Below, in pieces: positions 30,256-61,994 of a DNA stretch of 64,000 nt. The position numbers were made by a program, and so were the translations under genes. The stretch's first letter is position 1. Each line of letters starts with the position of its first letter. The notes under the pieces were generated by a model. The model was not told the DNA's origin, searched no databases, and saw only the letters and a program-made list of their open reading frames with translations. The stretch lies in the sequence record NC_105512.1, one strand, 5' to 3'. The stretch is from Escherichia phage JLBYU43.

Positions 30256-30350
30256 TGGAGGTAGGTAAGGGGATCGAACCCTTACACCGTATCACTACGA
30301 TCAACCGATTTCAAGTCGGAGTCCAGCGCCAGCCATTGGATTGACCTACC
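30256..30350 (-). tRNA. tRNA-Ser (UGA), long variable arm
   Basis: perfect acceptor GGTAGGT/ACCTACC, CCA encoded, loop CTTGAAA, 95 nt. Confidence 0.55.
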
Positions 30351-30362
30351 GTATAAATTGTT

Positions 30363-30456
30363 TGGCGGAAAAGATGGGAGTTGAACCCATAAGGCGGTAT
30401 TGCTACCACTCAACCGATTTCCAATCGGGTTTAGTCACCAGTCTATTTGCTTTTCC
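30363..30456 (-). tRNA. tRNA-Ser (GGA), long variable arm
   Basis: perfect acceptor GGAAAAG/CTTTTCC, CCA encoded, loop TTGGAAA. Confidence 0.5.
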
Positions 30457-31027
30457 GTTGTTCTGTTAATACTTTTGGGCTTAATCCGGTTAGTTTAGTA
30501 TATCGTCTACGTAAAGTGGACTCTGATACTTCTAGATCTTTAGCTGCCTTAACCCACCCCATTAATAATACCTTTTCAGTTATGTCTTCTAAGGACAATT
30601 CTGGTTTTATTAACTTTCCTGTAGGTTTTGGCTTACAATTTGTACATGTTACTGATCTCTGAAGCATTAGATTTCCACATAAGGGGCAAGGTACTCTACT
30701 ATCAGACCATCCATTATCTTTATTAGTTTTCTTCTGATGTTCTATTTTTGATAAAACTTGAAGATTATCTTTAGATAGATTCAGCCTATCTCTATCCTTG
30801 TGATCTACTTCTAATTCAGGGTCAAATAGATTATATAAGTCCCCAAATACATGAGAAATAATTCGGTGTATAAGTACCGAAGTTTGCTTACCATTTATCT
30901 GTAATTTTACAGCAGGGTATCCATCAACTATATATCTTGATAAAATTTTATTAGTAAATGTAGATAACACATCCCCTGTTTCATTTACTAAATACCCTGG
31001 TGCATCTTTTATTGGTACAAACTGCAT
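30443..31027 (-). CDS. HNH homing endonuclease
   Basis: NUMOD4-like N-terminus, HNH motif EVDHKDRDRLN, Cys-rich zinc ribbon. Confidence 0.7.
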   Translation of the reverse strand: MQFVPIKDAPGYLVNETGDVLSTFTNKILSRYIVDGYPAVKLQINGKQTSVLIHRIISHVFGDLYNLFDPELEVDHKDRDRLNLSKDNLQVLSKIEHQKKTNKDNGWSDSRVPCPLCGNLMLQRSVTCTNCKPKPTGKLIKPELSLEDITEKVLLMGWVKAAKDLEVSESTLRRRYTKLTGLSPKVLTEQRKSK

Positions 31028-31133: not shown

Positions 31134-31207
31134 TGGTGGAGAAAGAGGGAGTTGAACCCTCGTCTTCTGCGTGCAAAGCAGATGTTCTACCATTAAACTA
31201 TATCCCC
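31134..31207 (-). tRNA. tRNA-Ala (UGC)
   Basis: G3-U70 wobble (Ala identity element), loop TTTGCAC, CCA encoded. Confidence 0.6.
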
Positions 31208-31467
31208 AAATTCTTTAGTTTACTAAGGCTATTAGCTCGGTGTGCGTATTACCCTCAGACATTAGCCAGTAGAGGATAACCGCTCTTCACAAACCCGATA
31301 CACTATTCAGTTGCCGCTGAATCTAGTGGACTAATCTAGAACTTCTCCCGAGTCGTAGGGATTGTGCTTTTTGGCAGCCAGTCCTAGGTCGAGCTAATAC
31401 CTTAGTGAACTTTGATGAGGATTTCTCCTCATCAATTTATATAAATATTATAACAAGAAATTAAACA

Positions 31468-31827
31468 TTAAGCAAGTACATTTTTGCAGATTTCTTGTAT
31501 TTCCTTAACGTCACTAACGAAAAGGTAATCAGAGCTTCCAGAGTGCATACTCTGCATAACCACACCACCATCCGGTGCATCTTCTTTCAAAGTAATACCT
31601 AACCAGAACTTGGCAAAACTAGGTGTTACCTCACCTTGACTTGCCTTGAACACATCGCCTTCTGTGATCTCTTGACCAGTGGAGAGTCCCATGTATGGTA
31701 CGTTCAGATCAATATCTTTGTAGAACTCAGCTAGATCTTGCTCGAAATCCCAACCTTTAGAGATAGCGAACTCCATTGTTACATGACCGAAATAGCCTTG
31801 AACCTTGCTTGATAATTGCATTTGCAA
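31468..31827 (-). CDS. hypothetical protein
   Basis: 119-aa ORF. Confidence 0.5.
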   Translation of the reverse strand: MQMQLSSKVQGYFGHVTMEFAISKGWDFEQDLAEFYKDIDLNVPYMGLSTGQEITEGDVFKASQGEVTPSFAKFWLGITLKEDAPDGGVVMQSMHSGSSDYLFVSDVKEIQEICKNVLA

Positions 31828-32803: not shown

Positions 32804-33119
32804 AATATTCTTTGTTAACTCACTTTATAAGATATATTATACAGAGAATTAAGTGAAATAGCAAATGAATTTTTAATAAATTTACTTATTGCGTAGGCCA
32901 CCTGGAGGGTTCAAGCCCCACGGCTGACAAAGAAGTTTGCGAGACTTCTCTTAAATGCCAGAATAGACCCGCCGATCTATCGGAACCTACATAATAAGTA
33001 AACTTTCGTTTACCTACACCTACCTGGTCGGGAGGATTTTCAGCGACTAGAACCGGCCGGAAACTCATCGCCTTGTTTACCCTGTAGTCCCACTATAAGT
33101 GACGCGACCTACAAAGATT

Positions 33120-33489: not shown

Positions 33490-33542
33490 TGGCGGTACTA
33501 AGGGTAATCGAAACCCTACCTCTCCCGTGACAGGGGAGTACC
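33490..33542 (-). tRNA. compact tRNA-like element without D-arm (anticodon loop GUC, Asp-like)
   Basis: 53 nt: acceptor-like stem, hairpin CTCCC-CTGTCAC-GGGAG, T-arm AGGGT-TTCGATT-ACCCT, CCA encoded; no room for a D-arm. Confidence 0.3.
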
Positions 33543-33574
33543 ATTACCAAGCCAGCCCCGATCGCATAATTTAT

Positions 33575-37393: not shown

Positions 37394-37995
37394 TTTAGGT
37401 ATTTTTAAGAACTCTCGTAAAAGTCCTTAAAGATACCCAACGGTAGGTAGGGTCAGCCCCCTCAGATTAAGCTCTGCAGCCCTTCCGTCAGACAATATCT
37501 TCCAGTTTAAGTCAAGGTGACTTTGTGGTTATGTTCTCCGTATGTGAAGAACTCGGTTAGGCTTAGGTCATGACTCCCAGCCTACTGCTGCCGCTCAACA
37601 GGAATTATCGCGAATTACCTGTACTATTGGGCACCATTAGTGACATCTCTCATGTCAGCATTTCCCACTTTGTGGATAGCTTGAAAAACTACTCCGATAT
37701 GGAGAAAGAACTTCACTATCCTAGAAATACCTTCTAAAGTTCTTCTTTAGCCTGGACATAGTTAAATCGTAATAAAACTATTCAGCAGACTAGTTGGTTA
37801 GCCTGGAACCAACTACCGCGTGGTTTAGGCAGTGCGTAACTAACCTAGGAAGCTTTTACGTTAAAAGCATCAGTTATCCAGTTCTTACCGACCGTAGGAT
37901 TCGAACCTACATCTTCCACCAGTTACGGCTTGATAATACCAATTATACTAGGACGGCAGTGTTACTACATAAGTGATTTCCACACACCACTATTA

Positions 37996-61965: not shown

Positions 61966-61994
61966 TTGCTTTCAGGAAAAAATTTCTGTATAAT
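61966..61994 (+). promoter_or_regulatory. P_N25-like sigma70 promoter (TTGCTT-17-TATAAT)
   Basis: TTTATTTGCTTTCAGGAAAAAATTTCTGTATAATAGATTCATAAATTTGAGAGAGGAG closely matches my recollection of T5 P_N25. Confidence 0.75.

What the first reader, a model, noticed from the sequence alone, without database searches (positions are those of the whole stretch)
31208..31466. Early promoter followed by a perfect 8-bp/GAAA hairpin and ~230-nt leader before tRNA-Ala
The consensus promoter at ~31436-31478 is followed on the transcript by GATGAGGA-GAAA-TCCTCATC and then ~200 nt without an ORF before the first tRNA. This suggests a processed precursor or small RNA rather than an mRNA leader.
Basis: seen in the sequence. 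Interest (0 to 1): 0.4.

Follow-up and report, generated by a model that had tools for sequence, protein, structure and literature searches.

The report
T5 RNA2H structured RNA gene
The flagged stretch is the start of an early transcription unit of a T5-like phage: a strong promoter, a small 5' hairpin, and the gene for a ~195-nt highly folded non-coding RNA that phage T5's own annotation already lists as "RNA2H, stable RNA of unknown function"; I show here that its fold is conserved across six phage genera.

Summary
On the minus strand there is a T5-type early promoter (-35 TTGCTT 31475-31470, 17 bp, -10 TATAAT 31452-31447). It is followed by a perfect 10-bp/GAAA hairpin (31435-31412) and about 200 nt with no ORF before tRNA-Ala (31207).

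The window is a T5-like phage (Demerecviridae). In the T5 record the homologous stretch is already annotated as "promoter P13b" plus misc_RNA "rna2H/RNA2H". A related record calls RNA2H a "stable RNA with unknown functions".

What I add:
- The RNA (31411-31217) matches no Rfam family.
- It is found in six genera: Tequintavirus, Epseptimavirus, Sugarlandvirus, Myunavirus, Shenzhenvirus and Novosibvirus.
- Its fold has strong covariation support: 94.8% of cells paired against 42% or less in slid controls, and 50 of 64 pairs with compensatory changes.
- The fold is a 12-bp + bulged purine + 9-10-bp closing helix around a junction. Two hairpin loops of that junction pair back onto a 5' strand, giving two pseudoknots.

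The RNA lies directly after a promoter in four of five lineages; none is evident within about 140 nt in Proteus phages. The downstream gene varies.

Function is unknown. My best guess is an excised, trans-acting, protein-binding RNA.

The parts
31441..31495 (-). T5-type early sigma-70 promoter, ortholog of T5 'P13b'. A/T-rich upstream stretch, -35 TTGCTT 31475-31470, 17-nt spacer, -10 TATAAT 31452-31447, inferred start near 31440. It overlaps the stop codon (31470-31468) of the upstream 119-aa ORF.
   Evidence: Sequence. T5 annotation of the homologous stretch. About 20 paralogous promoter cassettes in the window. The start site is inferred from spacing only.
31412..31435 (-). 5' hairpin: 10 bp with a GAAA tetraloop. 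Its 5' arm is the SD-like GAUGAGGAG of the usual T5 early-promoter leader cassette; its 3' arm sequesters that sequence.
   Evidence: -14.7 kcal/mol, z = -5.8. (cassette comparison). (variants keep a GNRA loop, and GAGGA/UCCUC changes to GGGGA/UCCCC in L014). Absent in Klebsiella and Aeromonas phages; My1 has a different 13-bp hairpin.
31217..31411 (-). Structured non-coding RNA, 195 nt, ortholog of T5 RNA2H including the outer helix. The equivalent of the T5-annotated 172-nt RNA is 31399-31227.
   Evidence: Covariance model hits of 225.5 and 200.2 bits. Covariation. Homology to T5 rna2H.
31390..31411 (-). 5' strand of closing helix P1: P1a 31411-31400 (12 nt) and P1b 31399-31390 (10 nt).
   Evidence: 22 pairs, 17 with compensatory changes, 96.7% of cells paired.
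31217..31239 (-). 3' strand of P1: P1b 31239-31230, bulged G 31229, P1a 31228-31217.
   Evidence: The bulged purine sits at the same place in all lineages.
31373..31384 (-). 5' strand that accepts two hairpin loops: GGACUG 31384-31379 (P2) and UGCC 31376-31373 (PK2).
   Evidence: P2: (100% paired, 4 of 6 pairs compensatory, not part of model R3). PK2.
31346..31361 (-). P3, a hairpin of variable length. It is 4 bp here and is replaced by longer, different hairpins in relatives.
31322..31340 (-). Hairpin sB (UCUAG/CUAGA). Its 9-nt loop carries UAGUCC (31333-31328), the 3' strand of P2, forming pseudoknot 1.
   Evidence: all 5 stem pairs have compensatory changes.
31306..31321 (-). Hairpin P4 (UUCAG/CUGAA). 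Its loop CGGCAA contains GGCA (31315-31312), which pairs with UGCC, forming pseudoknot 2.
31300..31303 (-). 3' strand (GUGU) of P6. It pairs with GCAC at 31367-31364 and closes the junction holding P3, sB and P4.
   Evidence: helix 4: 96.9% paired, 2 pairs compensatory..
31244..31283 (-). P5, a long hairpin whose sequence differs between T5-type and window-type RNAs while the pairing is kept.
   Evidence: 7 of 12 pairs compensatory. (12 of 15).
31208..31216 (-). 9-nt spacer AAAGAAUUU between the RNA and tRNA-Ala.
31134..31207 (-). tRNA-Ala(UGC), the first tRNA of the unit. tRNA-Leu(UAG) follows at 31128-31044.

Best explanation
The stretch opens an early transcription unit in the tRNA region of a T5-like phage.

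Host RNA polymerase starts at a T5-type promoter, the ortholog of T5 P13b. The first about 30 nt of the transcript form a GNRA hairpin. This hairpin locks away the Shine-Dalgarno-like GAGGAG that this promoter cassette carries in front of protein genes elsewhere in the genome.

The next 195 nt are a gene for a non-coding RNA, the ortholog of T5 RNA2H. It folds into a 22-bp closing helix: 12 bp, one bulged purine, then 10 bp. That helix encloses a junction (P6 with P3, sB and P4). The loops of sB and P4 pair back onto one 5' strand, giving two pseudoknots. A long variable hairpin, P5, completes the fold. All of this is shown by sequence and covariation.

The following steps are inferred:
- The RNA is made on the same transcript as tRNA-Ala and tRNA-Leu and is then cut free.
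- RNase P cleavage at the 5' end of tRNA-Ala frees the 3' side.
- The long closing helix is cut by RNase III at the bulge. The RNA ends annotated in T5 coincide with a 2-bp-staggered cut exactly there.
- The released stable RNA then acts in trans as a shape-specific binding partner, scaffold or decoy for a host or phage protein. The family conserves helix lengths and topology much more than sequence.
For: Identity:
- 87% identity to the T5 stretch annotated promoter P13b + rna2H + tRNA-Ala + tRNA-Leu.

Fold:
- 94.1% of cells paired against 44% or less when partners are slid, with 23 compensatory pairs against 2-7 (four lineages).
- 94.8% against 42% or less, 50 of 64 pairs compensatory against 10-22, covariation score 0.395 against 0.077 or less (50 sequences, six genera).
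- Pseudoknot P2 is 100% paired although it was left out of model R3, which made the alignment.
- PK2 is complementary in every lineage with different sequences: UGCC/GGCA, ACCA/UGGU, UUGC/GCAA, GCCAA/UUGGC, CGCCAA/UUGGCG.

Family and non-coding nature:
- Covariance model hits in Aeromonas, Proteus and Pectobacterium phages at 41-57 bits with model R2 and 77-104 bits with model R3.
- No ORF in the region.

Processing geometry:
- The 12 bp + 1 bulged purine + 9-10 bp layout is the same in all lineages.
- The nucleotides conserved family-wide cluster at the P1a/P1b junction.
- T5's annotated RNA runs from the first nucleotide of P1b to the bulge plus CC.

Promoter-proximal position: seen in T5-like, Klebsiella, Pectobacterium and Aeromonas phages.

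From general knowledge: E. coli RNase III cuts helices of about two turns, leaving 2-nt 3' overhangs, and it was reported to take part in making phage T4 tRNAs (McClain 1979, listed in the references of PMC4810235).
Against: - No transcript data of any kind were available. The start site, the co-transcription, the cuts and the stability are all inferred or taken from database annotation. I could not trace the experimental basis of that annotation.
- The T5 ends may have been drawn by analogy with tRNA (stem plus NCC) rather than mapped.
- The outer helix P1a covaries. It is therefore selected for, which fits a processing signal but fits equally well a mature RNA that keeps the whole helix.
- In Klebsiella and Aeromonas phages P1 begins about 3 nt after the predicted start, so no 5' processing is needed there.
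- The near-constant position right after a promoter would also fit a cis-acting role.
- No partner protein is indicated by gene neighbourhood: the neighbours vary.
Confidence: 0.55

Rival explanations
1. A cis-acting leader. The folded RNA, still attached to the nascent transcript, changes the elongating RNA polymerase, giving processive antitermination or resistance to Rho. The long, largely untranslated, hairpin-rich tRNA/HNH unit is then transcribed to its end. This would work like the put RNAs of phage HK022 or the EAR RNA of Bacillus.
For: - The RNA sits directly after a promoter in four lineages: at about +3 in Klebsiella and Aeromonas phages, and after a short hairpin in T5-like phages and My1.
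- The gene that follows varies (tRNA-Ala, tRNA-Leu, tRNA-Tyr or a CDS), so the constant partner is the promoter rather than the downstream gene.
- Terminator-like hairpins occur downstream in the unit.
Against: - Other promoters of the same tRNA region work without such an RNA; for example the one at 32864 runs straight into tRNA-Pro.
- There is only one copy per genome.
- In Proteus phages no promoter is evident within about 140 nt upstream.
- The record annotation calls it a stable RNA, which implies a released species.
- A 22-bp terminal helix of fixed geometry is not a feature of the known antiterminator RNAs (from my own knowledge).
- No Rfam family matched.
Confidence: 0.2
2. A passive processing and stability module. 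The hairpin and the long helix only protect the 5' end of the tRNA precursor and give RNase III/RNase P entry sites. The excised RNA would be a by-product with no function of its own.
For: - The 5' hairpin and the 22-bp helix are the kind of elements that stabilise or punctuate phage transcripts (general knowledge).
- The RNA lies within T5's tRNA gene region. From my own knowledge, much of that region is deletable in laboratory strains.
Against: A spacer does not need an internal junction with two pseudoknots kept by compensatory changes across six genera. P2, sB, P4 and P6 lie inside the helix and are all under selection.
Confidence: 0.1
3. A riboswitch or a self-cleaving ribozyme in the leader of the tRNA unit.
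For: It is a pseudoknotted, junction-based compact fold placed just after a promoter.
Against: - No match to any Rfam family, even at E up to 10 on the isolated region.
- Very few unpaired nucleotides are invariant across the family, unlike ligand pockets or active sites.
- The closing helix is 22 bp, too stable to act as a switch.
- No terminator or RBS-sequestering alternative is present. Where a CDS follows, its RBS lies free just 3' of P1.
Confidence: 0.05
4. A degenerate tRNA or tRNA-like gene, as several other T5 'stable RNAs' (rna2, RNA1) appear to be.
For: - It lies among tRNA genes.
- The inner junction (P6 closing three hairpins) has a cloverleaf-like topology.
- The T5-annotated 3' end reads ...GCC.
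- rna2 and RNA1 carry T-arm-like GGTTCGAATCC / GGTTCAACTCC motifs.
Against: - ARAGORN and the Rfam tRNA model find nothing in 31217-31411, although they find the 23-26 tRNAs around it.
- There is no T-loop motif.
- The two loops pair with a 5' strand instead of with each other.
Confidence: 0.04
5. The hairpin is a plus-strand intrinsic terminator, and the rest is ordinary intergenic DNA or a small protein gene.
For: Read on the plus strand, the hairpin is followed by TTTATATAAA and is listed by the terminator scan.
Against: - The genes and tRNAs around it all lie on the minus strand.
- On the minus strand the hairpin sits inside a conserved promoter cassette.
- No ORF is present.
- Covariation shows an RNA read from the minus strand, and the model hits this strand only.
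Confidence: 0.02

Closest known systems
Phage T5 rna2H (RNA2H) with promoter P13b, as annotated in AY692264 and in DT571/2 (NC_047749)
   Same: It is the ortholog. There is 87% identity over promoter, hairpin and RNA, with the same neighbours: tRNA-Val upstream and tRNA-Ala, tRNA-Leu, an HNH gene and tRNA-Ser downstream.
   Different: The 3' hairpin P5 has a different sequence with the same pairing; this window type is shared with Klebsiella phages. The window also has a 119-aa ORF between tRNA-Val and the promoter. The annotation covers 172 nt, whereas covariation supports a helix 12 bp longer on each side.
Phage T4 small stable RNAs, species 1 and 2 (rnaC, rnaD), in the T4 tRNA cluster
   Same: Phage-encoded stable RNAs of unknown function that lie within a tRNA gene cluster carrying a homing endonuclease gene.
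   Different: No homology was detected: model R3 finds nothing in the T4 tRNA region. The T4 RNAs lie at the end of the cluster, not after a promoter, and are shorter at 139 and 119 nt.
RNase III processing helices: rRNA precursor stems, phage T7 early-RNA sites, the phage T4 tRNA precursor leader
   Same: A helix of about two turns, formed here by the 5' and 3' flanks of the RNA, interrupted by a small bulge. The T5-annotated ends match a staggered cut with a 2-bp offset.
   Different: Cleavage was not tested. The similarity is one of geometry only. The helix may equally be part of the mature RNA.
Cis-acting antiterminator RNAs (HK022 put, Bacillus EAR)
   Same: A structured RNA placed immediately after a promoter at the head of a long unit.
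   Different: There was no match to any Rfam family. The fold differs, with a long terminal helix and two loop-to-strand pseudoknots. The RNA is annotated as a released stable RNA.
Bacterial Y RNAs (YrlA)
   Same: A long stem made by the two ends, with a bulged nucleotide, carrying a compact structured module. Some are phage-encoded (from my own knowledge).
   Different: No Rfam match. There is no tRNA-like T-arm. The hosts include E. coli K-12, which as far as I know lacks the Ro protein partner.

Membership tests
T5 RNA2H family (stable RNA of T5-like phages) | Sequence homology to the T5 rna2H gene | tested here: met
   87.2% identity over 268 nt to AY692264 under the features 'rna2H' and 'promoter'. 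The first 113 nt of the 172-nt RNA2H are 95.6% identical.
T5 RNA2H family (stable RNA of T5-like phages) | Same genomic position: after the early promoter, before tRNA-Ala and tRNA-Leu, in the tRNA region | tested here: met
T5 RNA2H family (stable RNA of T5-like phages) | Shared secondary structure kept by compensatory changes | tested here: met
   The window sequence scores 225.5 bits with model R2 and 200.2 bits with model R3; it was among the sequences the models were built from.
T5 RNA2H family (stable RNA of T5-like phages) | Accumulates as a discrete stable RNA in infected cells | not testable with these tools
   Only the wording of the database records is available. No paper describing the experiment was found.
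T5-type early sigma-70 promoter | -35 TTGCTW, 17-bp spacer, -10 TATAAT, A/T-rich upstream block, conserved initially transcribed ATAAATTGA | tested here: met
   Sequence. About 20 paralogous cassettes in the window, including the PN25-like one at 61966. T5 annotation P13b. The generic TTGACA-based scan misses it.
T5-type early sigma-70 promoter | Initiates transcription early in infection | not testable with these tools
   No transcript data were available.
Any Rfam 15 family (riboswitches, ribozymes, Y RNA, 6S, tmRNA, RNase P, antiterminator RNAs that are in Rfam) | Match to the family covariance model | tested here: not met
   No hit on the RNA at E up to 1 in 11 kb, in five relatives, or at E up to 10 on 251 nt alone. 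In that last search the only hits are 17.7-bit and 13.7-bit noise over the 5' hairpin region.
tRNA / tRNA-like gene | Cloverleaf with D-arm and T-arm detectable by ARAGORN or the Rfam tRNA model | tested here: not met
   Nothing is called in 31217-31411.
RNase III substrate | Helix of about 20 bp or more | tested here: met
   P1 is 12 + 10 bp with one bulge and one C·A mismatch in this window. The same lengths occur in all lineages.
RNase III substrate | Cleaved by RNase III, leaving a 2-nt 3' overhang | not testable with these tools
   The only support is the coincidence with the T5-annotated ends.
Phage T4 species 1/2 RNAs (rnaC, rnaD) | Homology in sequence and structure | tested here: not met
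   Model R3 on the T4 region 66000-78000 gives a best hit of 8.7 bits, E = 0.85, located elsewhere.
Riboswitch | An expression platform that alternates with the aptamer helix | tested here: not met
   No terminator follows P1 on this strand. The downstream RBS or tRNA is not paired with the RNA. P1 is 22 bp.

The most novel reading that the evidence does not exclude
RNA2H would be the founding member of an undescribed class of compact, doubly pseudoknotted phage RNAs. The class is conserved across at least six genera of Demerecviridae and is absent from Rfam. Its function would be specific and new, for example a decoy or inhibitor for a host defence or RNA-processing protein, or a factor-independent modifier of RNA polymerase. 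It would not be a mere processing by-product.
Probability: 0.45. Interest if true: 0.65.

Novelty: already known. Interest (0 to 1): 0.45.

Why it matters
T5 is a classical model phage, and its tRNA region has lately been shown to carry counter-defence functions: T5 tRNA-Lys against PARIS (PMC11464382) and T5 tRNA-Tyr against a retron (as cited in PMC10644984). The "stable RNAs" of that region have sat in the annotation without a function.

This work shows that one of them has an intricate fold under purifying selection, shared by T5-like phages of Escherichia, Salmonella, Klebsiella, Pectobacterium, Aeromonas and Proteus. It therefore becomes a defined target: a family model, a base-pair map, and clear disrupt-and-restore mutations to test.

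For annotation, the family model would also stop the spurious "hypothetical protein" calls that several records place over this RNA, for example in Klebsiella phage Roth39 and Proteus phage Stubb.

Tried and rejected
- **Rfam.** Three runs found no family.
- **Small ORF.** None present.
- **Paralogues in the window.** Only the promoter part recurs. The covariance models find a single copy.
- **T4 rnaC/rnaD.** Unrelated by the model.
- **Host homologue.** Nothing in 5,426 complete E. coli genomes. A motif scan of 185,579 species' genomes gave 4 places, none confirmed by the model.
- **Vibrio phage pVp-1.** Bases 10-60 kb gave no hit. The RNA may be absent or too diverged in that subfamily.
- **First collection pattern.** It was too narrow and missed this window's own subtype. 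The second was too loose and returned mostly chance loci.
- **Model R1.** It was built with hairpin P5 one column out of register, so only 46.5% of cells paired. It was discarded for R2.
- **PK2 counts.** Column-wise counts for PK2 are weakened by one-column register shifts between lineages in the model alignment. PK2 therefore rests on per-lineage complementarity, with shuffle p values of 0.016-0.18 each. It is less secure than P1, P2, sB, P4 and P5.
- **The 105-nt insertion.** The insertion inside the 5' hairpin of some relatives does not fold better than shuffles (z = -0.47).
- **boxA.** A boxA-like reading of the P1 3' strand was considered by eye and dropped. It lies inside a helix and is not conserved between lineages.
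- **Literature.** Seven searches found no paper on RNA2H or on T5 transcript mapping in the held library.

Full report
**What the window is.** The region around the finding carries 23 tRNA genes, all on the minus strand. They are interspersed with small ORFs and an HNH endonuclease gene. A 901-nt query around the finding matches 437 phage records, essentially all T5-like phages of Salmonella, Escherichia and relatives. The window is therefore the tRNA region of a member of the Demerecviridae.

**The observation.**
- *Promoter.* Read on the minus strand, the sequence has -35 TTGCTT (31475-31470), a 17-nt spacer and -10 TATAAT (31452-31447), preceded by AAAAATGT. The generic promoter scan does not list it, because TTGCTT matches TTGACA at only three positions.
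- *Promoter family.* The first about 60 nt of the finding recur at many places in the window. A direct search shows about 20 cassettes of the same build: an A/T-rich block, TTGCTW, 17 nt, TATAAT, then ATAAATTGATGAGAGGA and an ATG. From my own knowledge this is the architecture of the strong T5 early promoters such as PN25, whose counterpart sits at 61966 in the window.
- *Hairpin.* It is UUGAUGAGGA-GAAA-UCCUCAUCAA (31435-31412), ten perfect pairs, -14.7 kcal/mol, z = -5.8.
- *Leader.* No ORF of 20 aa or more lies on this strand between the promoter and tRNA-Ala at 31207. The leader as a whole folds far better than shuffles (-82.1 kcal/mol, z = -6.1).

**It is already annotated in T5.** A more sensitive search with the leader alone finds 538 records. 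In the T5 st0 record (AY692264) the match lies under the features 'rna2H: RNA2H' and 'promoter'. The annotated region reads: tRNA-Lys, tRNA-Val, promoter P13b, misc_RNA rna2H (172 nt), tRNA-Ala, tRNA-Leu, HNH endonuclease, tRNA-Ser. I found no paper in the held library that describes RNA2H or maps T5 transcripts. I therefore cannot say whether the annotated ends were measured or were drawn by analogy with tRNAs.

**The 5' hairpin.**
- Its 5' arm is the Shine-Dalgarno-like GAUGAGGAG that the same promoter cassette places in front of protein genes elsewhere in the window. Here it is followed by its own complement instead of a start codon.
- Variants in relatives keep a GNRA loop. One has the double change GAGGA/UCCUC to GGGGA/UCCCC.
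- Pectobacterium phage My1 has a different 13-bp hairpin at the same place, again holding AAGGAGA.
- Klebsiella and Aeromonas phages have no hairpin. There the RNA starts about three nucleotides after the predicted start site.
- Some Salmonella and Yersinia phages carry a 105-nt insertion inside the hairpin, which does not fold notably well.
- The hairpin is thus an accessory. I infer that it keeps ribosomes off the leader and shields the 5' end.

**The RNA and its fold.**
- *First alignment.* I collected homologues from annotated phage records, from IMG/VR (26 true loci) and from metagenomes (13 true loci). This gave 41 distinct sequences in four lineages.
- *First count.* A structure read off the alignment gave 94.1% paired cells, against 44% or less when the 3' partners are slid by one to three columns. 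It gave 23 pairs with changes on both sides, against 2-7 in the slid controls.
- *Distant members.* A covariance model built from this alignment (R2) found the RNA in three more genera: Aeromonas phages (Shenzhenvirus, 50-54 bits), Proteus phages (Novosibvirus, 41-47 bits) and Pectobacterium phage My1 (Myunavirus, 57 bits).
- *Second count.* A second model on all lineages (R3) raised the distant hits to 77-104 bits and gave a 50-sequence alignment. Because R3 was built from an alignment that already contained those hits, they match it by construction; the R2 scores are the independent detection. On it, 94.8% of cells pair (42% or less slid), 50 of 64 pairs show compensatory change (10-22 slid), and the covariation score is 0.395 (0.077 or less slid).

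**Elements of the fold** (window coordinates are in the parts list):
- *P1, the closing helix.* It is 12 bp, one bulged purine on the 3' strand, then 9-10 bp. These lengths are the same in every lineage although the sequences differ.
- *The accepting strand.* A single strand, GGACUG-GC-UGCC, follows P1.
- *P6.* This short helix closes a junction of three hairpins: P3, sB and P4.
- *P3.* Its length varies and it is swapped for unrelated hairpins in relatives.
- *sB and pseudoknot P2.* The 9-nt loop of sB pairs with GGACUG. This pairing is 100% kept, has four of six pairs compensatory, and was not part of model R3, so it is an independent check.
- *P4 and pseudoknot PK2.* The P4 loop pairs with UGCC. 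The two sides are complementary in every lineage with different letters: UGCC/GGCA, ACCA/UGGU, UUGC/GCAA, GCCAA/UUGGC, CGCCAA/UUGGCG. The per-lineage shuffle p values are only 0.016-0.18, so this element is the least secure.
- *P5.* This long hairpin has a different sequence in T5 and in this window, while the pairing is preserved.

**What it is not.**
- No Rfam family matches, even when the 251 nt are searched alone at E up to 10.
- ARAGORN and the tRNA model see no tRNA in it.
- It is not related to the T4 species 1 and 2 RNAs.
- It has no counterpart in complete E. coli genomes. A motif scan of one genome per prokaryotic species, followed by a model check, also found none.
- It is present once per genome.
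- A riboswitch is unlikely. The closing helix is 22 bp, no terminator follows it on this strand, and the next gene's RBS or tRNA is left free.
- Few unpaired nucleotides are invariant across the family. This argues against both a ligand pocket and a catalytic core, and for recognition by shape.

**Context across the family.** The RNA always lies in the tRNA region. In T5-like, Klebsiella, Pectobacterium and Aeromonas phages it lies directly after a T5-type promoter. In Proteus phages I see no promoter within about 140 nt. The gene that follows differs between phages:
- tRNA-Ala in this window, T5 and Klebsiella phages;
- tRNA-Leu(UAG) in My1, where the record misses it;
- tRNA-Tyr in Aeromonas phages;
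- a protein gene in Proteus phages, bombadil and others.

The RNA is therefore a module of its own rather than the leader of tRNA-Ala.

**How it most likely works.**
- *Shown:* a promoter-like cassette, a hairpin, and a conserved, intricately folded RNA gene immediately upstream of tRNAs on the same strand.
- *Inferred, transcription:* early transcription from the promoter yields one precursor carrying the RNA and the tRNAs.
- *Inferred, release:* RNase P cleavage at tRNA-Ala frees the 3' side. The 22-bp helix with its bulge is a likely RNase III site. The nucleotides conserved family-wide cluster at the P1a/P1b junction.
- *Inferred, cut site:* the ends given in the T5 record are the first nucleotide of P1b at the 5' end, and the bulge plus two nucleotides at the 3' end. 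That is what a cut staggered by two base pairs at the junction would leave. Involvement of RNase III in making phage T4 tRNAs has a published precedent (McClain 1979, cited in PMC4810235).
- *Inferred, function:* the released RNA would act in trans as a shape-specific partner of a protein. I give the identity (RNA2H ortholog, structured non-coding RNA) about 0.95. The release-and-trans-action scheme as a whole gets about 0.4-0.5, and the RNase III step alone about 0.4.
- *Main rival:* a cis-acting role on the transcribing polymerase, suggested by the promoter-proximal position (about 0.2).
- *Lesser rivals:* a mere processing spacer fits poorly with selection on the internal pseudoknots (about 0.1).

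**Verdict.** The entity is already in the T5 annotation, so I rate it 'already known'. What remains open, and is made testable by the family model and the base-pair map produced here, is the function of a conserved, doubly pseudoknotted phage RNA that no RNA-family database describes.

Noticed in passing
window 33325-33201, 32992-32890, 30252-30115, 29894-29789, 29998-29979 (all minus strand): Orthologs of the other T5-annotated 'stable RNAs' are present. rna2 is 88% identical, RNAIV 94%, RNA1 82% and RNAIII 97%. Only the first 20 nt of RNAI are kept. In T5, rna2 and RNA1 carry T-arm-like motifs.
   Followed up: partly
window 30260-30350, 37886-37957, 33493-33559 (minus strand): tRNA-model hits that ARAGORN does not call: 37.6 bits (tRNA-Sec model, at the place of T5 tRNA-Ser1), 35.5 bits, and a weak 25.6 bits.
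   Followed up: no
window, about 20 sites on the minus strand (e.g. 28742, 32864, 35050, 39196, 40544, 43457) and a few on the plus strand (e.g. 61966, 62980): A family of T5-type early promoter cassettes. They share an A/T-rich block, -35 TTGCTW, a 17-nt spacer, -10 TATAAT and an initially transcribed ATAAATTGA...GAGG...ATG. The cassette at 61966 looks like T5 PN25.
   Followed up: partly
L006 418-525, L007, L008, L009, L016 (phages bombadil, phiR2-01, S126 and two IMG/VR genomes): The 5' hairpin carries an insertion of about 105 nt between UUGAUG and CAUCAA, replacing AGGAGAAAUCCU. It does not fold better than shuffles (z = -0.47), and its origin is unexplained.
   Followed up: partly
L008 (Salmonella phage S126), within the RNA just after hairpin P4: A 7-nt tandem duplication, TGAATAG, sits in the strand that carries the 3' side of P6.
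   Followed up: no
L157 19278-19362 (Pectobacterium phage My1, minus strand): ARAGORN finds a tRNA-Leu(UAG) two nucleotides after the RNA. The record has no tRNA there and instead annotates the CDS My1_054 ending nearby. ARAGORN finds 27 tRNAs in this stretch against 20 annotated.
   Followed up: no
L154 150-300, L149 19150-19291 (Proteus phages): About 140 nt of non-coding sequence lie upstream of the RNA, with a hairpin AAGUGGG...CCCACUU/CCCACCUU and no evident promoter.
   Followed up: no
L003 449-637 (minus strand), L154 299-442 (minus strand), L004 636-992: Several public records place 'hypothetical protein' CDSs, some on the opposite strand, over this RNA gene. These are probably mis-annotations.
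   Followed up: no
window 30443-31027 (minus strand): The HNH endonuclease ORF (PHROG 59) overlaps the first 14 nt of tRNA-Ser (30456-30363), as its T5 counterpart T5p062 does.
   Followed up: no
window 31412-31435, plus strand: Read on the plus strand, the hairpin is followed by TTTATATAAA and is listed as terminator-like. No plus-strand gene nearby would use it.
   Followed up: partly
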